Source: Glaucostegus cemiculus (lineage: Eukaryota). Taken from it: 64,000 nucleotides of DNA. Where the stretch lies: NCBI GenBank assembly GCA_976551045.1, contig CDPCPM010000736.1, forward strand, positions 434,001 to 498,000, written 5' to 3'. This document shows positions 30,641-54,556 of this stretch, one piece after another (the stretch's first letter is position 1; every line of letters begins with the position of its first letter). The notes beneath the pieces were generated by a model. It had not been told where the DNA came from. It did not search any database and worked only from the letters and a program-made list of their open reading frames with translations. The position numbers and the translations under genes were made by a program.

Positions 30641-31087
30641 AGCTTTGTGAATTATATATTGTATGAAATAAAACTGGTTTGTATGCAATGAATGTATTTT
30701 TATTAGAACAGATCTAATTTGATAGAGTAGATATAAAACAGGAGAATACAATTATGGAATTAAAACAGAACTCCTGGTCGATTTACCTGTGAGAAATGTA
30801 TTTCGAGAGGTAAGGACATTAAAATGATCTCTGAGTACCAAACGCGTCTTCAGCAGAGGTCATTGACGTTCGGTACTGAATCTGCTGTTATAAAGTCCCT
30901 TTTTCTCGAAATAATTAAGCACAAAATGCGTAAATTTCGGATGACGATCACAGTTTAATATTAACGAAATGGTAATAGCAGAAGTATCGAGACAAGTTAA
31001 CACATTCCTCGGATGTCAATTATGCAGGTAGTCACTGTCAATCTGAAAACGCCGCTGCCTCCACTGAAAGGCCCTCTTTGCCAACGT

Positions 31088-31378
31088 TTAGAGATTTCTA
31101 CCTCGCAACTGCTGCACATTCACGGCCGCATAGACGACCTGCTCTCCCTTCCTTTCCCGAGCCTTCAAGGGCTCCAATACAACTGGTTTCTCACCATGAT
31201 CTTGACGGCGAAGTGCGGAGACGACAACCGCACCTTCACCCCTTTCTTCCAGTGATATCGCTCCGTCCCATGTTCCAGGCTTCACTGACTTCTGCTCAAT
31301 CTGATCCAGGGGGTAATGGCTGTCCGGCTTTCTGATGTTCAACTGAGCGTAAACTATAGATTGCGACTTGTCTCCTCC
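31088..31378 (-). CDS. Gene C terminal cytoplasmic exon GGDKSQSIVYAQLNIRKPDSHYPL...KGEQVVYAAVNVQQLRGRNL* (two ITIMs)
   Basis: Acceptor tgttatctgtttaatttaag|GGA (phase 0); 291 nt open. IVYAQL and VVYAAV fit (S/I/V/L)xYxx(I/V/L). Candidate AATAAA on the minus strand at 30699-30704. Confidence 0.85.
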   Translation of the reverse strand, partial: GGDKSQSIVYAQLNIRKPDSHYPLDQIEQKSVKPGTWDGAISLEERGEGAVVVSALRRQDHGEKPVVLEPLKARERKGEQVVYAAVNVQQLRGRNL

Positions 31379-34300
31379 CTTAAATTAAACAGATAACACA
31401 TCAAGTTTGAAATTAAACAATAGCGAACATCTCTACCCGAGTGAGCTTTCTAAAACCTAGAGCAATACGAGTTGTGCCACAATGCTGCCACAGGGTCATA
31501 GAGAACCACGGCCACTTTCAAGGAACTGTGGATCTGTATTCCCAAGTCTCTTTGTTTTACCACACAATTCAGAGCCCTACCATTCTCTGTGTAAGTCTTA
31601 CCCCGCTTTGTCCTCCCAAAGTGCAACACCTCACACCTGTCTGCATTAAATTCCATCTGCCATTTTCCAGCCCATTTTCCTGGCTGATCAAGATTCTGCT
31701 GCAACTTTGATAGCCTTCCTCGTCCCATCTAGTCCATGCCGAACTGATCCTATTTACCGGCACCCGGACCGTATCCCTCCAACCCCTCCCACCCATGTAC
31801 CAGTCCAAACTTCTCTTAAATGGTACAATTGAACCCTTGCATTTACCACTTCCGCTGGCAGCTCGTTCCACACTTAGATTCCCTTGATATATATTTCACC
31901 TTTCACCCTCAACCTATGTCTTCTAGTTCTAGTCTCACCCACCCACAGGTGGAAAAGCCTGCATGCATTCACCCATCTGTACCACTCATAAATGTGTATA
32001 CCTCTATAAGATCCCCCCTTATTCTCCTGTGCTCCAGGAAGTAAAGTCTTAGCCTATTCAACCTTTCCCTAGAACTCAGGTTTTCAAGTCCCGGCAACAT
32101 CGCTGTACATTTTTTCTGCACCCTTTCAAGCTTATTGATAACATTCCTGTACGGAAATGAACTCAGCTGCACACAATACTCCAAAGTCGGCCTCACTAAC
32201 GTCTTGTACAACTTCAACATAACATCCCCAACTCCTGTACTCAATGCCCTGATTTCTGAAGGCCAAAGTGCCAAACGCTCCCTTTACGACCCTATGACGC
32301 CACTTTCAAGGAACTATGGATCTGTATTCCCAAGTCTCTTTGTTCTACCACACAATTCAGAGCCCTACCATTCTCTGTGTAAGTCTTACCCCGCTTTGTC
32401 CTCCCAAAGTGCATCACCTCACACCTGCCTGCATTAAATTCCATCTGCCATTTTCCAGCCCATTTTCCTGGCTGATCAAGATTACGCTACAACTTTGATA
32501 GCCTTCCTCGCTGTCACTACGCCCCCAATCTTGGTGTCATCCAAAAACTTGATGAGCCAGTTTACCATATTATCATCTAAATAATTCATATAGATGATAA
32601 ACAACAATAGACCAACACTGATCCCTGCAGCACACCACTCGTCATAGGCCTCCAGTTAGAGAGACAAATATCTGCTATCATTCCCTGGCTTCTCCCACTA
32701 AGCCAATGTTGAATCCAACCGGCTACTTCATCCTGAATGCCAGCAGCCTTCTTAATCTCTGGACCAGCCACCCATGAGGGACTTTGTCAAAGGCTTTGCT
32801 GAAGTCCATGTAGACAACGTCCCGTGCCTTTCCTTCTTGGTAACCATCTCGAAAAAGTTCATAAGATTGGTTAAACATGACCTACTACACACAAAGCCAT
32901 GTTGACTATCCCTAATCAGATCCTGTCTATCTAAATACTTACGTATCCTGACCCTTTCAATACCTTCCAATGATTTACCCACGACTGACGCCTGCAATTT
33001 TCTGCCTTATTCTTAGAGCTTTCCTTGAACAATGGAGCGACATCAGCTACCCTCCAGTCCTTTGACACCTCACCCATGGCTAACTAGTTTTAAATATCTC
33101 TGCCAGCGTCCCTGAAATTTCTGCACCAGCCTCCCACAAGATGTGAGAGGACATCTTGAAAGGGCCTGGGGATAGGTCCATCTTCATACACCTCAAGACA
33201 GCAACCAACTCCTCTTCCATAATCTGGATACAGTCCATGACCTCACTACTCCTTTGCCTCAGTTCTATCATCTCTGTGTCTCCAGAGTATATACGGATGC
33301 AAAAATAAAAATCATTTAAGATCCCCCCACCCCTAGCTCTTTCGGTTCCATGCATAGATGACCATGCTGATCTTCAGGAGGACGAATTTTGTCTCTTTTG
33401 CTCTTAATAAAGCTGTAGAAACCCTTGGGATTCTCTTTCACTTTGTCTGCCAGGGCAAACTCATGTCCTCTTTTTGTACTCCTGATTTCTCTCTTAAGTG
33501 TTCCCTTGCATTTTTTATACTATTCAAGCGCCTCTTCGGATATGAACTGCCTAAACCTGATATGCCCCACTTTCTTTTTTCTTTACCGGGGCTTCAAAAT
33601 CACTCAATAACAAAGGTTTCTTAAACCTGTTAAAAATTAAATAAATTTTATTTACAGTGTGGTAACAGGCCCTTTAGGCCCAACGAGTCCGCGCCGCCCA
33701 TTTTAAACCCCCAAATTAACCTACCCGTACGTCTTTAGAATGCGGGAGGAAACCGAAGCACCCGGAGGAAACCCACGCAGACACGGGAGAATGTACAAAC
33801 TCATTACAGTCAGCGACGGGAATCGAACCCCGATCGCTGGCGCTGTAACAGCGTCGCGCTATCGTGCCTTGCCTTTTACTCTAACCGGAGCATACAGATT
33901 CTGTATTCTCAAGATTTCACTTTTGAAAACCTCCCGTTTACCAAGCATCTCTTTGCTGGAAAACAGCCTATCCCAATCCACGTCTGCCAGATCCCTTCTG
34001 ACGCCATCTAAATTGGCCTTATTCCAATTTAGAATCTCAACCCGAGGACCAGTCCGATCATTCTCCATAATTACCTTGAAACTAATGGAATTATGATCAC
34101 TAGATCTAAAGTCGTTTCCTGCACACCTGTCTCGTTCCCTAAACGGAGATCCAGTATCGCGCTCGGTCTAGTTGGAACCTCTACATGTTGATTAAGGAAG
34201 CTTTCTCGAGCACATGTGAGAAACTCTATCCCATCCAATCCCTTCACAGTATGGGAGTCAGTATGTGGGAAGTTAAAATCACCTACCATCACAATCTTAT

Positions 34301-37300
34301 TTTTCTTGCAACTGCCTGCTCTCTCTCTTCAAATGTGTTCCTGTAAATCCCACTAGTTATTGGGAAGTCTATAATATGGTCCCATTAACGTGGTCATCCC
34401 TTTATTATTTCTCAGTTTTACCTATATTGGCTCAGCAGACGACCCTCCATTATATCACCTCTGAGCACTGCCGTGACATTTTCCCTGATGAGTAATGCCA
34501 CCCCTCTTATTTTAATACCTTCCTCTCCATCATGTATAAAACATCAGAACTCCGGAACATTGAGCTGCCAGTCCTGCCCCTCCTGCAATCAAGTCCCATT
34601 AATGGCTACAACATCATAATTCCGCGTGCCGAGCCATGCTCTAAATTCACCTGCCTTGCCTACAATACTCCTTACATTGAGATAGAAGCATCTCACAACG
34701 TTCGTCCCACCATGCTCATCAACCAGTCGATTTCTGTCTTTGCTTGTAGGCTGAACATCTGCTTTCCCCATTCCACTTGCTATCCTGCTATTCTGGCTCC
34801 GACCCCCTTGCAACTCCGGTTTAAACCCTTCACCCGCCCCCTCCCCGCCCCGAGCAGCATTGATAAACCTTCCCGCAAGGTTATTGCTCCTCTGCGGCCC
34901 TCCATTTCAGGCACAACCCGTCTCGTTTGTACAGGTCCCACTTGACCTGGAAGAAAACCTAATGGTCTAAAAATCTGAAGCCGTCCTTCCTGCACCATGT
35001 CCTTAGCCACGGGTTAAACTGCGCTCTCTTCCCATGTCTTGTCTCACTGGCATGTGGCACTGGTAGCAATCTTGAGATCACCATCCTGGAGGTCCTGCCT
35101 TTTAACTTAGCACCTAACTCTCTGAACTCACTTTCCAGGACCTTGTCACCCTTTCTGCCTGTGTCATTGATACCCGTGTGGACCACGAATTCTGGCTGCT
35201 CACCCTCCCCCTTAACAATGCTGTGGACTCGATCGGAGACATCTCTGACTCTGGGACCTGGGAGGCAACAAACCATCCGGAGGCTTGTTCTCGTCCACAG
35301 ATTCTCCTATCTGTTCCCCTAACCAATGAATCTCCGATCACTATTTCACTCCTCTCCCCCTTCCCTTCTGAGCCACGAAGCTAGACTCGGTGCCAGAGAC
35401 TTGGCCACTCTGGCTTTCCTCTGATAGGGCGTCCTCACCCCCTCCCCAACAATATCCAAAACGGTACGGCCAGAGGGGCACCCCCTTGCACTGACTGCCA
35501 ATCTCCTTTCCTTCTCCTGACGGTCAACCAGCTACCTGCATCCTGCAACCTCGGTGTGACTGCCTGCCTGTAAGTTCCTGTAACTGTCAGTTTCAGCTCA
35601 AGTTCTTACACTGCTCAGCATCCAATAGCTCAACAACCAGGCGGCCATGAAGCTAATCACAGCAAGACCTGGCTCTTATTTACTTAGGTGGCTTCGTATC
35701 ATTCAACGAACTCTGTGCTATTCCGCGATTGATTCAATGCTGGAATATTAAACAGTTGGACGAAAAACAGAAAATGATGGAATAACTCAGCAGGTCAGGC
35801 AGCAGACGTGGAAAGAGAAACAGCTAACATTTCGGGCCGAAGATCCTTCACCAGACAACAAGAGAGATGAAATGGGAAAACGCAACTTACCCTACCGACG
35901 TCTTCAGTTCCGGATCTTTTATCTATAATACATTTAAAAAAGATTAGGTATTTCAGATAGGGAAAAACAGCTCTCATGGACAGAATGCCAGAATGCTTAT
36001 TTTGAGAAGAGTGCCTATTTCTTTATGATATTTCTTCTGCTTTTCCCGTTATGGATACTCTTTGTACTATTTCTTAATATATTATAGTGTGACAAAATAT
36101 CATAAAATCACACGACTGGAAGATTAGAATATCCTTTTTAATGAAGTGAGGTATAAATCTAAGGTAACGTACTTTAGCATTTAGATAATTAGTTCACTTT
36201 CCACATAAGTGCACAAGTACCTTGTAATTTCTTCTTTCTTCGCCTGCTTGTAAACCTCTACACCTCGACCTCTCAGAGCCTGTAAGCTAAATTAAGGGGA
36301 CCACGCGTGTACAAATGTTTTAAATGTATGACCTATAATTGCTCTGTCTGGAGGTTAATGCAGGAAAATGTGTTTCAAACATTCGTGTAAGCCAATAAAA
36401 GATAACTAAAGATCACAGAAAATGTGGGCGTTCGTCCAATTATTGGTCACCTTGACGGATCCATTCCAATGTTTAGAATGATCTGGACACTAATCTGGAC
36501 TCTGATGGAAGGAGATACTTTTGCAGGGATACGATTTCATGGGTACGTTAATAGACTCGCAGTCAGAATGTTGGATCATTGCTCCTGAGCTGCGAGAAAT
36601 ATATGTGAGTATATAAATCTGGAATTTGAAGTAAAAGGCCGAACAGCCGTGAAACTACCGTACTGTTGTAAATCCCTATTTGGTTCACTAACGCTCTTCG
36701 GTGAAGGAAATGCACTGTCCAAACCCGGCCGAGGTCTATATATAATTCGATATTGACCAGTGCGTTTGACCCTTAACCACCTCCTCATTTGACGGCATTA
36801 GAGGTGGTCAATACCAATGCCGAGGATATCACATCCCATGAACCGACTCCACGAGCCAAAGAAGTTGGATTTGGGTAATTACCTGGAGACCGGCAGCGGC
36901 GCAAAATATAAATGATCACAACAGGCGCTAACATGAGGACCACGGCAGGCAAGGCTAAAAATCCAACAGGATAGACGTTGCTGTGAATGGGATCCAGTAT
37001 CACGCCAGGATCTTCATGCCCTGCCAAGAAACATGTTACATTAATTCATGCTTTATTGCCAATAGTACTTTCTTCGGAATTTTTGGAGAACATCTAGATG
37101 TCGGTTCAGCACATCCCCGAGATGGGGAGAAGATAGACAGAACATTGTGGTTGTTTTTAACGTTGCCCTTTGTGTGTTGTTTACACTGCCTTCTGTGGTA
37201 ACTAACTGACAACAGCCTCCATGCCGGATGTAAACAAGATGATGCGCAGATAAAGAACTAATTTACTTGGTAAATGTAAGTTTATTTTAAATTTCAAATG

Positions 37301-40300
37301 TCAATATGTTTCCGTGAGTTGGAGATGAAGGTTTAGGGACATCAAACTTTTTTTTTTGTTAGATGTCTTTCTTTGTGGTGTTCGGTGGCTTCGCAGTTTC
37401 CTGTACCCCCTCTTGTGTGTATGTGTGTGTATCTGTGTAATATATTTATGGAACAAACAACATAGAACAGTAAGAAATAAATTATTAACTCATTAGGTTG
37501 ACTATTAGCGTTTTGTTTTACAAATATGACGGTGCTGAAAATCTGAAATGAAATCGGTAAGGAATGTACATAGACTAGGAATCCTGCCGCGAGTAACTCA
37601 TCTCCTAACATTAGGGGTTTGAGAAGATCTGGTATGTCAACAGAGACTCTTCCAAATTTCTGTAGATGTACAGTGAAGAGCATGCTGACTGGTTGCATCA
37701 CCGCCTGGTATGGAGGCTCCAATGTGAAGGATCGAAAGAGGCTGCAGAGGGTTGCAGACTCGGCCAGCTCCATCACGGGCACAACCCACCCCGCCATCTA
37801 GGACATCTTCAAGAGGCTGTTCCTCAAGAAGGGTCATTAAGGACCCTCACCATTCGGGACGTACCCACTTCTCGTTAGTAAATCGGGGAGGAGGTATAGG
37901 AGCCTGAAGACCCACACTCAATGATTTAGGAACAATTTCTTCCTCTCTGCCATCAGATTTCTGCACGGCCCATTAACACGTGAACACTATCTCTTNNNNN
38001 NNNNNNNNNNNNNNNNNNNNNNNNNNNNNNNNNNNNNNNNNNNNNNNNNNNNNNNNNNNNNNNNNNNNNNNNNNNNNNNNNNNNNNNNNNNNNNNNNNNN
38101 NNNNNNNNNNNNNNNNNNNNNNNNNNNNNTCTATTCGTCCATTTATTTATTTGTTGTAAACTATAGTAATTATTATGTCTTGGCACTGTACTGCGGCCTC
38201 AAAACAACAAGTCTCACGACATACGTCAGTGATAATAAACCTGACCATCCAGGACACAGCAGCCCGTTTGATGGGCACCCCATCCACAATCATTCACGCG
38301 CTCCACCACGGATGCACAGTAGCAGCAGTTCGTACTATCTGCAGGATGCACTGCAGCAACTCATTAAGACTATTCAGACAGCACCTTCCAAAGTCACTGC
38401 CTTCTACCAGCTGGAAGGACAAGGGCAGCAAAAACATGGGGAGCACTACTACGTGGAAGTTGCCCTGAAAACCACACACCATCTTGACTTGGAAATATAT
38501 CACTGTTCCTTCACCGTCGCTGGGTCACTGTCCTGGAACTCCCTCCCTAACAGCAGTGTGGGTCGACCCCCCACCTCAAGGACTGCAGCGGTTCAAGAAG
38601 GCAGCTCACCACCACCTTCTCCAGGACAACTAGGGATGAACAATGCGGACTCAGCCGCGAAACCCACATCCCTTGAATAAAATAAACGTTTTATTTTTCT
38701 GACAGAGTTTCATGGAATATGAGGTGTTCTTACTGGTTCAACAGTAAGGTTGAAAGCATATTGGTCTGTAACTAGATAGGGTAAAAAGGAGATTTTCGCG
38801 GATGCTACCATGGCTACAGCATTTTAGTAATGAAGAATAGCTAGGGTTATTTATTTGGGAACGGAGAAGACTGCAAAAAAAGTTTATTGAAATGTAGAAT
38901 TATCTTGGTTATACATGGGTTACACGGGGAGGGTTTATTTTCCGTAGCTTAATGAGACAAAGGCCGGGGAACGTGGTCTTAAAGTAGGTGGAAGATTAGA
39001 GGCGCGATTAGGAAAAACATTTTCTCCTGGGGCGTACAGGAGGTTTTGAGAGTGACTGTCAGGCAGGAGGGTCGAGGCAGGAGCGTCCTCAACAAACTGA
39101 GAAATGTCTGGACGTGCGCTTGAAGAGCCGCGACCTACTACCGGACTGCAAACATGGGATTAGGGTGGGAAGTTATTTTTGTAAACCGGCACTTCTAGGC
39201 CAGGGTTTTATAGGCGTTGTGTATTTTTTGTTCTATGAAATGTTTAATCATATTGTCTTACGATATGGAAGGAAGCGAAAGAAAATATGAAATGTGAAAG
39301 AACGTTTCATAAGATCAACGAATACGACAAAGAAGACGGACATTCGGGCTATCGAGTCCATGCCAGCTCTCAGAACAATCCCATCCAACCACTTACTTCG
39401 CTGTAACATATCCTCTCTCACACGCCCAATAACCTCAGCCCCTTCCCGAGGCATAATCTACAGTGACTAATTAACCTACCATGTCTTCGGGATGTCGGGG
39501 AAACCGGAGCACCCGGGAGAAATCCACGTGGTCAGAGGGAGAACGGATGAACTCCGCACAGACAGCGCTGGAGGTCAGGATTGAACCCAAAATCGCTCGA
39601 GACAGCAGCACTAACTGCTGCACCACTGTGTCTCCCTCGCTTGTCTCCCTCTGACCTTCCCTCTTCCCTCGTCTGTGCCTGGCGAGACCTTGAGTTCATC
39701 AGTTTCGCCCTGGTGAGTGTGTTTTAAAATCCCCAAGAAGAAAGCGGTCAAAGGTGGTCATGCATTGTTGCTGATCTCACGCACTTATACCGTTGTAGCA
39801 GTACCTAATGTGCTTGACCTGAAATTCCAATTCGATGCACATTTCATGCCCAATTGACAGTCACAACAAGACTGACGATTCCTCTCACAAGAAACATCCT
39901 CTGTGGACTGCTTATCTCCGCGCCTTTGTTCTGCTGCGTTTTACCCGGCGGGAAACGAATCAGATGGGAACAGTTTCACGCCTCGTCGCGTTATTCTTTG
40001 TCGGTTACCTCCATCGGAACGTGAAATCCCGCCGTGTGACGGACGTCACCGTCGGGTTCTCGGGCATAGTCCCGGGTTAAAGTTCCACCGGGTGATTACA
40101 GGCTGGGTTAGCTTGTCATTATCACTGAAGCTACAAACATCAGCCAACGATGGAAATTCCCATTGAAATACAATACCACCCCGACTCTCTATAGCTTTTT
40201 TTTTAAAAGAAAAACTGGGGGTAGGTGGTTGGGAGGATTGAATCAGGAGGTAAGATAATGTAAACTTACGCTTCACTGTGACTTCTGTCCCTTCTCCAGA

Positions 40301-43300
40301 AATCGTTTCACCGTTGAAAATGTTAATCTGGCAGTAATATCTGCCCGTTTCATTTAGTTTCAGGTCGGTGATGGTGATGGAAGTCCATGCCCACCGAAGC
40401 TCTGCAGTATAATTTTTCAGAAAGCGGCCATTGCAGTCTGCGGATGTGCTGCAAAGTGGAGTCCTTTCCTTGCCTTTGTACCAGCTGATGGCAGAAGGTG
40501 GTTTGCCTTCTGGTTGCGTTGAGTTCCATCTGAAGGAACAGTTCAGTTGAACCGAGCCACCCTCGGTAACTGTGACCCGCGGCGGCGTCTGGTTGATTGT
40601 TACTCCGGCCCCGGCAGTTCCTGTAACCAGAAACAACCTCCTTCATGACACTGTCACAATTTGGTGATTGTGCCTTCAGCAATAAACTGCGGGGGAAAAA
40701 AAAACCTTCTGCACTGGTTCAAAAAGGAAAGGACTTGCCTGCGAAGAACAGGGTAAAGATCAAGTTACCTTGACCATCTTCTATATAAGGGACACAAACA
40801 AGAGGCAATAAATCTATACTTTTAGTTTGGCTGCAAACTTTCCCTGACACACTGAGTGCCTTCAATACTATTTATCTTTAACTCGACTTTCGACTCTAGA
40901 CAAGAGTATGGTTTTGCGCTCAGTCAGCCTCTTTTCTCCGCTTTCCCATAGGGCAGAAGATACAAAAGCCTGAAAGTACGTACCACCAGACTCAAGGACA
41001 GCTTCTATCCCGGTTATAAGACTATTGAACGGTTCTCTAGTACGATAAGATGGACTCTTGACCTCACAATCTACCTCGTCATGGCCCTTGCACCTTATTG
41101 TCTACCTGCATTGCACTTTCTCTGTAGATGTTACACTTTATTCTGCATTCTGTTATTGTTTAACGTGTACTACCTCGATGCACTGTGTTAATCTGTATGA
41201 ATGGTAGAAAAAATGAACTGTTCACTTCTCCTCGGTACATATGACAATAATAAACCAATTCCAATTCCAACTGCAATTAAAGTGGTTCATGCGGATGCCT
41301 TGGGAGTGTAAAGTTATGAAACATCCACAAGCTACTTCCTTCTGCAAAGAGACCAACACCTAGAAGGCACAGATTTAAGGTAACTGCCGGCAGATTAATT
41401 CTGGAACTCATTGCCTGAAATGAAGTTGGAGACACAAATACTCACAACGTCGAAAAGTTTTCGAGATTGATAACCGGGACAGCGTTCGAGAGAGGTTGGG
41501 GAAATAACTCGTTTATGGCGGCGTGGGCAAGAAAGAACGACTAGTCCCCTTCATCATAAGCGAAGAGCTAGACAGCACAGAAACCGGCCTTTCGGCCCAC
41601 CACGTCCATGCGGACCATGAGTTACCCATCTACGTTAATTCCATACATTGGTGCCGTAAATACATACCTTTCCTTGATTACTGAAGCTAAATGGCCAGAT
41701 CGATTTTAATTCGGAATGAAAGATAAATTCTCACTTGCTCCTGCTGTCTCTGTCCCCATGGGGAGAAGTAGAGGTTTGTGATTATGCCTCTTCTTCGACG
41801 AGCAGCCACACCAACCCGGCTGCTATCTCTTACTTCGCAGCTTTCTTTTTATGTTTAACTCATTTTTTCTCCTGCTTAAAGTTAAGTATTTACTATTATC
41901 AAACTAAATCATAATATTTTATATTTCTTCATAGCATTTCACCGAGGTGTGTACACCAGCGCAGAGCCATGGGTACCACACTGAGACAGTCGCGCAGTCA
42001 GTAGAACTGCTGTCTCACAGCTACGGCGAAGCGGGTTTGACCGTGACCTCCGCAGCTGTCTGTGCGGAGTTCGCATGTTCTCCCACATCCCAAGGACGTT
42101 CAGGGAGGTTATTTGTCCGATAATTTGCTCCTAGTGGGGTTGGGCGGCAGCAGTGTCAGGGAGAGTTGATGGGCGTGTTAAAGAGAATAGGTTGAGATGA
42201 AATAAGAGGGAGAATGGGACTGGCGAGTATGAACTGAGAGACGGGATGTATATCCTGCCTTCCTCGTATGTGGGAAGAAACAATATGAAGCCAGCAAGCC
42301 TTTCAATCATGATTTCAATTTGCCGGGAAATATAGCAATAAATGTAAATATACATATATCCTTGAAACAGTTGCTCATGGAAGAGCATGGTTTGTGGAGA
42401 GAGATTTTTCTCCAATTTTTTTCGCTGAATTGACGTCATCGTTGACACTTGCGAGCTAGACTGGACGAGTCAGTATGTGCACGTTTCTCTTCATTTTATG
42501 TTTCGGTAGGGATGCCGAGTCACTATGGAAGTCTTTGTGACAATGTTGGATGCGCAACGCCAGTTGTTTTCAACAAAGAACAAGGCCGTGCGGCTACCTG
42601 GGGTGGTTGCTGTCGAAAGGTTTGCTGGCTTCATACATTTGTAGTCACATAGAAAGAAGCCAGCATCTACATTCACTTATCAGCTCACAGCACCAGTTCC
42701 ATTCTCCCTTTGCAGGTAATAGATATTTAATCACTAAAAGGAGCAGGAAGGTGCGTGAAGAGGCTCTGAAAAGCCCAGANNNNNNNNNNNNNNNNNNNNN
42801 NNNNNNNNNNNNNNNNNNNNNNNNNNNNNNNNNNNNNNNNNNNNNNNNNNNNNNNNNNNNNNNNNNNNNNNNNNNNNNNNNNNNNNNNNNNNNNNNNNNN
42901 NNNNNNNNNNNNNNNNNNNNNNNNNNNNNNNNNNNNNNNNNNNNNNNNNNNNNNNNNNNNNNNNNNNNNNNNNNNNNNNNNNNNNNNNNNNNNNNNNNNN
43001 NNNNNNNNNNNNNNNNNNNNNNNNNNNNNNNNNNNNNNNNNNNNNNNNNNNNNNNNNNNNNNNNNNNNNNNNNNNNNNNNNNNNNNNNNNNNNNNNNNNN
43101 NNNNNNNNNNNNNNNNNNNNNNNNNNNNNNNNNNNNNNNNNNNNNNNNNNNNNNNNNNNNNNNNNNNNNNNNNNNNNNNNNNNNNNNNNNNNNNNNNNNN
43201 NNNNNNNNNNNNNNNNNNNNNNNNNNNNNNNNNNNNNNNNNNNNNNNNNNNNNNNNNNNNNNNNNNNNNNNNNNNNNNNNNNNNNNNNNNNNNNNNNNNN

Positions 43301-43468
43301 NNNNNNNNNNNNNNNNNNNNNNNNNNNNNNNNNNNNNNNNNNNNNNNNNNNNNNNNNNNNNNNNNNNNNNNNNNNNNTGTCTCTGTGTGTGTCGGTCTAT
43401 GTGAATCCCTATGTGTATTACTTACCAGCCAACAACAGCGATACCCAAACGACCACCTCGCTCAGCAT
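31088..43468 (-). CDS. Gene C (spliced span): NKp30-like VJ IgSF inhibitory receptor with two ITIMs
   Basis: Leader 43468-43426, V 40620-40270, TM 37020-36883, micro-exon(s) 36279-36221 and/or 35922-35891/35896, terminal exon 31378-31088. Confidence 0.82.
31490..35580 (-). mobile_element. Near-full-length degraded CR1 LINE (ORF1 esterase, ORF2 endonuclease + RT) in the last intron of gene C
   Basis: Ordered fragments IGDSLVRGTDRR, VCCLPG..VVHTGIND (SGNH ORF1), CFYLNVRSI, VGDFNFP (endonuclease), DSQHGF..SCLTNL, TSGVLQGSVL, LYKTLVRPTLEYCVQ (RT); frameshifted. Confidence 0.9.
33650..33866 (-). mobile_element. Young V-SINE inserted into the CR1
   Basis: Near-identical to 48512-48735; interrupts CR1 ORF2. 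Confidence 0.8.
35765..35860 (-). mobile_element. Penelope-derived repeat with mutated minimal hammerhead motif
   Basis: Minus strand CTGGTGA-AGGATCTTCGGCCC-GAAA-TGTTAGC, then gctgcctgacctgctgagt. Confidence 0.6.
35891..35922 (-). CDS. Gene C candidate cytoplasmic micro-exon (32 nt, or 27 nt with the internal donor at 35895)
   Basis: tattatag|ATAAAAGATCCGGAACTGAAGACGTCG|GTAGG|gtaagt; both donor choices can restore phase 0 for the last exon. Confidence 0.55.
36221..36279 (-). CDS. Gene C candidate cytoplasmic exon (G)SERSRCRGLQAGEERRNYK
   Basis: ttagcttacag|GC ... ACAAG|gtactt; 59 nt, phase 1 to 0, open, purine-rich. Confidence 0.55.
36590..36843 (+). mobile_element. LF-SINE-like element (related copies near 21430-21660, 49150-49330, 52790-53030)
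   Basis: tggttcactaacgctcttcggtgaaggaaat..cacatcccatgaa pattern, recognised from memory. Confidence 0.5.
36883..37020 (-). CDS. Gene C stalk/TM exon (R)HEDPGVILDPIHSNVYPVGFLALPAVVLMLAPVVIIYILRRCRSP(G)
   Basis: ttcttggcag|GG ... CCAG|gtaatt; 138 nt phase 1-1. Uncharged TM followed by the basic stop-transfer RRCR. Confidence 0.88.
37610..38240 (+). mobile_element. Rex1/Babar-type LINE 3' fragment spanning an assembly gap (37996-38129)
   Basis: NFCRCTVKSMLTGCITAWYG..DRKRLQRV. Confidence 0.8.
38240..38685 (+). mobile_element. CR1/L2-clade LINE 3' fragment
   Basis: TIQDTAARLMGTPS..HALHH..TVAAVRTICRMHCSNS, WNSLP; tail cccacatcccttgaataaaataaa. Confidence 0.75.
39310..39632 (-). mobile_element. 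V-SINE copy
   Basis: ggaaaccggagcacccgggagaaa core on the plus strand. Confidence 0.7.
40270..40620 (-). CDS. Gene C V exon (VJ-type Ig V-set domain)
   Basis: ctggttacag|GA ... AAGC|gtaagt; 351 nt. Motifs LNC..WYK..ETGRYYC..SGEGTEVTV; extra Cys pair CSTSADC. Confidence 0.92.
40925..41270 (+). mobile_element. Rex1/Babar-type LINE 3' end
   Basis: GRRYKSLKVRTTRLKDSFYP followed by a 3' UTR and (CCAATT)n tail. Confidence 0.75.
42780..43377. other. Assembly gap (598 N) in gene C leader-V intron
   Basis: N run. Confidence 1.
43426..43468 (-). CDS. Gene C leader exon MLSEVVVWVSLLLA(G)
   Basis: gaaccATG start, 43 nt, donor GCTG|gtaagt, preceded by an acceptor-like ttttatacag. Confidence 0.85.
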
Positions 43469-53339: not shown

Positions 53340-54556
53340 GTGAGTCACTCTCTTGTAATCTTTACCATGTAATTCCAAATATATTGTAACTTTGAAAGTG
53401 TGTGGATATCTCAGGCTGTTTCCTAATGCAGAGGAGTACAGGAATTGAAATGTCATGTTATAACTGTTCTAGTTTTAGACTCCACTAGTTTAGGGGGGGA
53501 AAGAGACTGTGATTATACTCCTCATGATTTTATCAACCTTTTTAGGTGCCCCTACACTCCTGGGGGGAAAAAAAGTCGCAGCCTATCCAAGCCCTCCCTA
53601 AAACTCAAGCCCTCCAGTCCCCGCAGTTGAAGGGCTTGAGTATAAGCAGATTACCCAATGTATTACCGTTTTCCTCGGTCACAGTGTTGAGCCAGTTGAG
53701 ATTCTGGTCAACACTGAGCTCCTGGTTAACACTTGGAGTAAAAGGTAGACGGAGGAATTCGGCGATGATGTTTTGAATAAAAAGAGGCACAAAACAGTGA
53801 TGATAAAACCACACATTTTATAATTTGGGTTATAGCTTCGCCGGAGGGGATCTCTGTCAATCCTGTAGGAAGTCACTGATGGAGAAAGGCTTTCCCTGTA
53901 CACTCTAGGAGTGCTGACTGAGATCAAAGTGGCCCAGACTCCGAGCTCGGTCACTGCAACGCAAGAAGGGTCGGTGCAGCTGACCTGCACTTTGGAGGTG
54001 ATCTCATCCTCCGTCGGGAAGCTTGGCTGGAGACGGGCCTCGCTGGACCTGGAGATAAATGACCAGATTCCGTTCTATCGGGGCTGCGTGGTCAGATCTG
54101 GTCAGAAGTTATTTGCCCAGAAGACGGCGTTCATTGAAATCAACGATTTGACGAAATTCGACTCGGATCTTTACGTCTGCGAGGTGGAGGTTCCGGGGGT
54201 TGGAAAGGGAAAAGGGAATGGGACAGCACTTAATGTAATCGACAGTAAGTAGAAAACATTGGAGATGACTGTAAGAGTGTAACAGCGCTGTGACTATTAA
54301 TGTGTGATAGGCTTTGCGATTTGTCTGCGTTAGCTTGAAAGCACACTGCTCACTGTCCGTCTCCTGAGGTGAAAGGAATGGGGTCGGAGTGAAACATTAA
54401 CGCCACCCAATTGATGGTTGCCTCGCTTCCCGCAAGTGAAACTCGAATAATATTACATTCATTCAGGACTCTGCTGCCGTTCAGCATAAGGCGCGGCACA
54501 GTGGCACAGCTGTCACTCTCAGTTACCGGGTTCGATCCTGACCTCCGGTTCTGTCT

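What the first reader, a model, noticed from the sequence alone, without database searches (positions are those of the whole stretch)
31088..31378. Double-ITIM exon only partly visible in the ORF track, separated from the rest of gene C by a 4-kb CR1
Seen: extending the listed ORF upstream to a phase-0 acceptor reveals SIVYAQL in addition to QVVYAAV, about 75 residues apart. Established: tandem ITIMs engage SHP-1/2, and the spacing in KIRs is much shorter. Inference: this is an inhibitory NKp30-family member, a type mammals lack. The wide spacing may imply independent docking or SHIP use.
Basis: partly seen in the sequence, partly recalled or inferred. Interest (0 to 1): 0.7.

Follow-up and report, generated by a model that had tools for sequence, protein, structure and literature searches.

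The report
Inhibitory NKp30-like ray receptor tail
This is the last exon of an intact "brake-type" immune receptor gene of a ray-like cartilaginous fish; its two inhibitory motifs lie far apart because a third motif between them, kept in most relatives, has lost its key tyrosine.

Summary
The exon is real. It is the phase-0 last exon (31378-31088, minus strand) of a five-exon, 284-residue receptor: leader, one VJ-type V domain, uncharged transmembrane segment, 32-nt mini-exon, tail; all junctions are GT-AG. Its closest relatives are RefSeq models from Mobula hypostoma and Hypanus sabinus (V 61-62% identical, tree support 99/97), which read the tail in the same frame and register. The two ITIMs are 73 residues apart, not 75. 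Sites 2 and 3 lie 26-30 residues apart, the KIR spacing. This gene has Val at site 2; the two orthologues keep site 2 and have His at site 1. The wide spacing is therefore most likely motif loss, not a special design. Both remaining motifs have pY+1 Ala, which suits SHP-1/2; nothing points to SHIP. NKp30-family membership is supported by profile, fold and neighbours. Splicing across the CR1-type intron was not shown with reads.

The parts
43426..43468 (-). Exon 1, leader (ATG at 43468; 43 nt, ends in phase 1)
   Evidence: tblastn match to the Mobula orthologue's leader; GT donor
40270..40620 (-). Exon 2, single unsplit VJ-type IgV domain, five N-glycosylation sequons
   Evidence: Pfam V-set E 1.7e-13; 62% identical to XP_062903896.1; sequons
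36883..37020 (-). Exon 3, stalk plus transmembrane segment with no charged residue (phase 1 to 1)
35891..35922 (-). Exon 4, 32-nt cytoplasmic mini-exon that converts phase 1 to phase 0
   Evidence: AG and GTAAGT ends; an 11-residue equivalent in 14 of 15 aligned rows
31495..35740 (-). Decayed CR1-type LINE in intron 4 (ends approximate), same strand as the gene, with a 212-nt 3' duplication and a nested short repeat at 33861-33649
31088..31378 (-). Exon 5 coding part (phase 0), 96 residues plus stop: the finding
31340..31357 (-). Site 1, ITIM IVYAQL (Tyr198 of the model)
   Evidence: His in both orthologues
31211..31228 (-). Site 2, tyrosine-less former ITIM VVVSAL (Val241, codon GTC)
   Evidence: VVYSAL in Mobula, VVYSQL in Hypanus
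31121..31138 (-). Site 3, ITIM VVYAAV (Tyr271), the best conserved site
   Evidence: 74% identity to homologues over its six columns against 30% for the rest of the exon
30699..30704 (-). Candidate polyadenylation signal AATAAA, about 385 nt after the stop
   Evidence: function inferred

Best explanation
Gene C encodes a type I membrane receptor with one NKp30-like V domain, a neutral TM segment and a 113-residue tail. It is the inhibitory member of a cluster whose neighbours A and B have a TM lysine and short tails (activating type). Shown: gene anatomy, frame, orthology, motifs. Inferred: the exon is spliced across the old CR1-type insertion; on ligand engagement next to an activating receptor, Src-family kinases phosphorylate Tyr198 and Tyr271, which recruit SHP-1/SHP-2 and damp the signal. 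The ancestral tail had three tyrosine sites spaced about 33-49 and 26-30 residues. Lineages lost different ones: this gene lost site 2, Mobula and Hypanus lost site 1. The 73-residue gap is a by-product. The phosphatase probably binds one motif at a time, bridges two receptors, or bridges both motifs through a probably flexible linker with less avidity than a 30-residue pair.
For: Five exons join into one open frame with GT-AG ends. Orthologues XP_062903896.1 and XP_059827210.1 share the frame and place site 1 ten residues into the last exon, as do Narcine and one Heterodontus protein. Annotated isoforms of paralogues break at the same two junctions (P0155, P0154, P0147 against P0056). V tree: gene C plus both orthologues 99/97. 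Tyr at sites 1/2/3 in 11/12/13 of 15 rows, all three in 8; site 2-3 spacing 26-30 in all 12 rows with both columns filled. No charged TM residue, against Lys in genes A and B. pY+1 Ala favours SHP-1 (PMC8631942). In KIR3DL1/NKB1, single-tyrosine mutants still inhibited and an 18-residue spacer deletion did not matter (PMC2192670).
Against: No transcript or read evidence for this genome. The orthologues are predicted RefSeq models whose support was not seen. Intron 4 carries two AATAAA and one ATTAAA on the sense strand. An AG/GT-flanked 59-nt stretch (36279-36221) would shift the last exon out of frame if included. SHP-1 needed both phosphotyrosines in peptide assays for KIR and G6b-B, and listed ITIM-ITSM distances are 11-62, mostly 18-35, so 73 is outside that range; the KIR test shortened the spacer, it did not lengthen it. 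Foldseek's lead for NKp30 over TCR and VNAR domains is thin, and phmmer with the V domain alone listed no NKp30 chain among 60 hits. The fork order among paralogues is unresolved, so the direction of each loss rests on parsimony.
Confidence: 0.7

Rival explanations
1. The LINE in intron 4 cuts transcripts short, so the exon is orphaned and the product is a tailless, non-signalling membrane decoy.
For: Sense-strand insertion of about 4 kb ending roughly 120 nt before the acceptor; AATAAA at 34406 and 33652, ATTAAA at 34516. The tail is less conserved than the V domain (47-49% against 61-62%).
Against: AATAAA density in the intron (2 in 4.5 kb) is below the window mean of 0.76 per kb. The element is heavily decayed, while the exon has no stop or frameshift, an intact acceptor, a best-conserved site 3 and a downstream AATAAA.
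Confidence: 0.08
2. The last exon is read in another frame, through inclusion of the 59-nt stretch at 36279-36221 or skipping of the 32-nt exon, which gives a short tail with no ITIM pair.
For: The 59-nt stretch has AG and GT ends and an open frame; both variants stop within 7 or 26 residues of exon 5.
Against: Neither orthologue model has such a segment. Only the phase-0 frame is homologous across 14 shark and ray proteins. It could still be a minor isoform.
Confidence: 0.05
3. The missing middle tyrosine is an assembly error or a rare allele; the real receptor has three ITIMs with an ordinary 30-residue pair.
For: Five of six site-2 residues match Mobula; the codons there read GTT GTC GTC, a short repeat. 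One assembly, with gaps, and no reads.
Against: GTC differs from either Tyr codon by at least two bases, not a typical single-base error. Site-2 Tyr loss also occurs in a Heterodontus protein, and a Chiloscyllium protein has Pro at +3.
Confidence: 0.1
4. The widely spaced motifs act through SHIP, a single-SH2 inositol phosphatase.
For: SHIP1 needs only one pITIM (PMC7641642), so spacing would not matter to it.
Against: The motifs have Gln and Ala at pY+2; the SHIP-type Fc-gamma-RIIB motif has Leu there (recalled; search found no paper). Site 1 resembles the KIR proximal ITIM that binds SHP-1. The spacing is explained by loss of site 2.
Confidence: 0.07
5. It works as an inhibitory receptor but belongs to another VJ-type IgSF lineage (NITR-, SIRP- or TIGIT-like), not the NKp30 family.
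For: The single V domain scores best against TCR alpha chains. RefSeq names for relatives vary: uncharacterized, NCR3-like, PIGR-like, TIGIT-like. Foldseek margins are small.
Against: Profiles of the family rank all four human NKp30 chains above every other single-V chain. Gene D in the same window hits only NKp30 at E up to 1e-6. One unsplit VJ exon and no constant domain.
Confidence: 0.12

Closest known systems
Mobula hypostoma LOC134346457 (XP_062903896.1) and Hypanus sabinus LOC132394822 (XP_059827210.1), uncharacterized RefSeq models
   Same: Orthologues by V tree (99/97); same architecture, tail frame and site 3; 61-62% V, 69-71% TM plus mini-exon, 47-49% last exon.
   Different: They keep site 2 and have His at site 1, giving a 30-residue pair; this gene keeps site 1 and has Val at site 2, giving 73 residues.
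Shark NCR3 multigene family (Kinlein et al. 2021, PMID 33742259; eight nurse shark accessions are listed in PMC12227049)
   Same: Clustered, divergent, non-rearranging VJ-type genes. RefSeq calls several three-site or ITIM-bearing relatives 'NCR3-like'. From recall, not checked: ITIM-bearing NKp30 relatives were already reported in shark and in Xenopus (XMIV).
   Different: The paper was not held, so subtype assignment, and whether it already notes the three-site tail, could not be checked.
Human NKp30 (NCR3)
   Same: Single VJ-type V domain; best single-domain profile and fold match.
   Different: NKp30 signals through a charged TM residue and ITAM adaptors, with no signalling motif of its own in the tail according to PMC6514059. 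Gene C has a neutral TM and ITIMs; structural identity is only about 20%. B7-H6 binding is untested.
Inhibitory KIR2DL/3DL and other tandem-ITIM receptors (PD-1, BTLA, G6b-B)
   Same: Neutral TM, consensus ITIMs with pY+1 Ala; the family's site 2-3 spacing (26-30) equals the KIR spacing of 30.
   Different: Different ectodomain; in this gene the 30-residue pair is broken and the remaining pair is 73 apart, beyond the distances listed.

Membership tests
NKp30/NCR3 family | Single non-rearranging VJ-type IgV domain in one exon, with a G-x-G J-like strand | tested here: met
   One 351-nt exon, Pfam V-set, G-x-G-T motif invariant in 19 aligned rows
NKp30/NCR3 family | V domain closer to NKp30 than to other V-set proteins | tested here: met
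   Profiles A2 (no gene D) and A3 rank NKp30 first among single-V chains, 61-63 and 73-76 bits; Foldseek ranks 1-2, thin margin; single-sequence phmmer does not list NKp30
NKp30/NCR3 family | Clustering with a clear NKp30-like gene | tested here: met
   Gene D, about 10 kb from gene C's leader: 4 of 4 PDB hits at E up to 1e-6 are human NKp30
NKp30/NCR3 family | Linkage to the MHC | not testable with these tools
   No genome is held for this window
NKp30/NCR3 family | Binding to B7-H6 | not tested
Canonical activating NKp30 (orthologue of human NCR3) | Charged TM residue for ITAM adaptors and a short tail | tested here: not met
   No K, R, D, E or H in the TM; tail 113 residues. Gene C is a paralogue, not canonical NKp30
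ITIM inhibitory receptors | Cytoplasmic (I/V/L/S)xYxx(L/V) motifs | tested here: met
   Two motifs, both behind the TM in the model; consensus as in PMC7641642
ITIM inhibitory receptors | Tandem pair about 18-35 residues apart for bivalent SHP-1/2 binding | tested here: not met
   73 residues; the 30-residue partner lacks Tyr
ITIM inhibitory receptors | Phosphorylation-dependent phosphatase recruitment and inhibition | not testable with these tools
   Needs experiments

The most novel reading that the evidence does not exclude
Cartilaginous fish run a paired activating/inhibitory NKp30-family system whose inhibitory arm has a three-tyrosine tail that is pruned differently in each lineage. This gene (sites 1+3, 73 apart) and its myliobatiform orthologues (sites 2+3, 30 apart) are reciprocal solutions in one receptor, with a selected change in phosphatase preference or avidity. 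That would be a natural experiment on whether ITIM spacing matters.
Probability: 0.25. Interest if true: 0.62.

Novelty: new variant of a known kind. Interest (0 to 1): 0.42.

Why it matters
Human NKp30 is mainly an activating receptor. This cluster shows Lys-TM activating genes beside an ITIM-bearing paralogue, and in the V tree activating and inhibitory members intermingle, as in paired receptor families. The reciprocal loss of tyrosines between orthologues gives ready-made constructs for testing how SHP-1/2 use two distant ITIMs. The gene type itself is not new: orthologues are in RefSeq, and ITIM-bearing NKp30 relatives in cold-blooded vertebrates are recalled from the literature.

Tried and rejected
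No whole genome is held, so MHC linkage and other copies could not be examined. No RNA holder was listed, so no reads were laid; this is no evidence either way. A word-index search with the tail alone found nothing among longer proteins (0 of 201 candidates); the relatives came through the V domain. A possible leader near 40778 was dropped in favour of 43468, which matches the orthologue. The 59-nt stretch and skipping of the mini-exon were rejected as main paths. No paralogous tail lies elsewhere in the window. Pfam gave no RT hit on the decayed LINE (0 of 6 fragments, 0 of 3 frames). Kinlein 2021, Ohta and Flajnik 2015 and Flajnik 2012 were not held. Ten literature searches listed no paper whose title or shown passages describe ITIM-bearing shark NCR3 tails; since the key papers are missing, that is no proof of novelty. 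Earlier scan notes: none. No complex prediction was run, as phosphotyrosine binding cannot be modelled there.

Full report
Observation. Window 31378-31088 on the minus strand gives 96 codons and a stop, with IVYAQL and VVYAAV 73 residues apart. The acceptor lies behind a T-rich tract with no other AG for about 52 nt upstream. An AATAAA follows about 385 nt after the stop. Two ITIM-like hexamers are not rare by themselves: 8 of 343 six-frame ORFs of 60 residues or more in this window have two, and 1.4% of peptide shuffles do. The case therefore rests on gene structure and homology.

Gene model. tblastn with a ray homologue located the leader, V, TM and last exons; the mini-exon was read from the sequence. 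The exons are 43468-43426, 40620-40270, 37020-36883, 35922-35891 and 31378-31088. They join into one 284-residue frame with GT-AG ends and phases 1, 1, 1, 0. The TM segment has no charged residue and the tail is 113 residues. A 59-nt AG/GT-flanked stretch at 36279-36221 would put the last exon out of frame, as would skipping the mini-exon; neither orthologue model shows this. Intron 4 is 4,512 nt and mostly a decayed LINE on the gene's strand: a sub-threshold esterase hit, a weak endonuclease hit and broken RT-like motifs. 'CR1' is my label from recalled anatomy. Its polyA hexamers are no denser than background. No RNA data could be laid on the locus.

Relatives. The V domain found Mobula hypostoma XP_062903896.1 (62%) and Hypanus sabinus XP_059827210.1. 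They form a clade with gene C (99/97 in a 25-row V tree), so the window is probably from a batoid; this is inferred from similarity only. For the tail comparison I chose 14 homologues by hand from the 139 hits and the hits: single-V, TM-bearing, long-tailed chondrichthyan proteins, one isoform per gene. I left out short-tailed activating types, extra isoforms, multi-domain hits and one more distant Heterodontus protein (P0072). All 14 align in the frame used here. An 11-residue mini-exon equivalent is present in 14 of 15 rows, and site 1 falls ten residues into the last exon in the window, both orthologues, Narcine and one Heterodontus protein. Exon limits in homologues are inferred from protein alignment; annotated isoforms break at the same points.

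The main result. The family tail has three tyrosine sites. Tyr is present at sites 1, 2 and 3 in 11, 12 and 13 of 15 rows, and at all three in 8; strict motifs number 7, 11 and 11. Site 1-2 spacing is 33-49; site 2-3 spacing is 26-30 in all 12 rows with both columns filled. KIRs carry YxxL(x)26YxxL, 30 residues Tyr to Tyr (PMC2192670, passages; PMC2192677, passages). Gene C has VVVSAL at site 2, exactly 30 residues before site 3, where Mobula has VVYSAL. The two orthologues instead have His at site 1. Other patterns occur: one Heterodontus protein keeps only site 3; Chiloscyllium has Pro at +3 of site 2, leaving strict motifs 78 apart; Narcine has two motifs 37 apart, the second aligning to site 2 or site 3 depending on the alignment. 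Three ancestral sites with repeated loss is the most parsimonious reading, but the deep forks of the tree are open. The Val codon is at least two bases from a Tyr codon; an assembly error or rare allele cannot be excluded without reads.

Mechanism. Shown: neutral TM and two consensus ITIMs (consensus in PMC7641642, passages). Inferred: Src-family phosphorylation and SHP-1/2 recruitment. Both motifs have pY+1 Ala, the residue that gates SHP-1 binding (PMC8631942, passages). Against simple bivalent binding: distances in that paper's supplementary file 4 are 11-62 and mostly 18-35, and SHP-1 needed both phosphotyrosines in peptide assays (PMC3501490, passages). In favour of function anyway: SHP-2 bound single motifs of G6b-B, KIR single-tyrosine mutants still inhibited, the proximal tyrosine mattered most, and shortening the spacer had no effect. 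The tail is 68% disorder-promoting residues, so looping is possible. SHIP needs one motif only, but the pY+2 Leu recalled for SHIP-type motifs is absent; I found no paper to confirm that rule.

Family. Profiles built from the relatives rank the four human NKp30 chains above every other single-V chain; only multi-V chains score as high or higher. An AlphaFold model (mean pLDDT 77) has NKp30 at Foldseek ranks 1-2, with TCR and VNAR domains close behind. The V domain alone prefers TCR alpha chains and lists no NKp30 among 60 hits. Gene D in the window hits only NKp30, and genes A and B have TM lysines and short tails. Gene C is thus an NKp30-family paralogue, not canonical NKp30. MHC linkage and B7-H6 binding are untested.

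Literature. PMC6514059 (passages) says NCR tails lack signalling motifs except NKp44, and that NKp30c is immunosuppressive; PMC12272517 (passages) says NKp30C carries an ITIM, so 'mammals lack this' needs care. PMC12227049 (passages) lists eight nurse shark NCR3 accessions. PMC10751288 and PMC11599192 (passages) treat NKp30 as a non-rearranging VJ gene. PMC12619710, PMC3964593 and PMC10450919 gave only reference-list hits. Kinlein 2021, Flajnik 2012 and Ohta and Flajnik 2015 could not be read; they and their supplements may already describe ITIM-bearing members, as I recall for shark NCR3 subtypes and Xenopus XMIV. Ten searches showed no description of the three-site tail, which is weak evidence given those gaps.

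Verdict. The inference from spacing does not: the gap is most likely what remains after loss of a middle ITIM. New variant of a known kind; interest 0.42.

Noticed in passing
window 53869-54246 (+), gene D: V exon whose only PDB hits at E up to 1e-6 are human NKp30; it faces away from genes A-C. No convincing TM exon was found before the window end.
   Followed up: partly
window 11300-2641 (-), gene A: Leader, three tandem V exons (two 93% identical) and a Lys-bearing TM exon; a Mobula relative has annotated one-V and two-V isoforms.
   Followed up: partly
window 20457-18540 (-), gene B: Single V exon plus a Lys-bearing TM exon with a short tail, activating type.
   Followed up: partly
P0154 (Hypanus LOC132393827 isoform X1): An in-frame 26-residue insert between the TM exon and the mini-exon resembles a CR1 reverse-transcriptase motif (recalled), suggesting LINE exonisation in a paralogue's tail.
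   Followed up: no
P0150, P0151, P0024 (stingray and manta paralogues): Site 1 ends in Met (YxxM, a PI3K-type motif by recall) rather than an ITIM, with ITIM-type sites 2 and 3 behind it.
   Followed up: no
V tree: Inhibitory P0024/P0150 group with activating P0023/P0025 (six-row clade 100/99), as expected for paired receptors with homogenised ectodomains; Hypanus LOC132394821 (activating) and LOC132394822 (inhibitory) have adjacent locus numbers.
   Followed up: partly
window 32510-32299 and 31722-31511: 212-nt direct duplication (97% identical) at the 3' end of the intron-4 LINE; a short repeat nested at 33861-33649 has a 95% identical copy at 48725-48512.
   Followed up: no
window 36279-36221 (-): 59-nt AG/GT-flanked open stretch that, if spliced in, would give a short tail without ITIMs: a possible decoy isoform.
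   Followed up: partly
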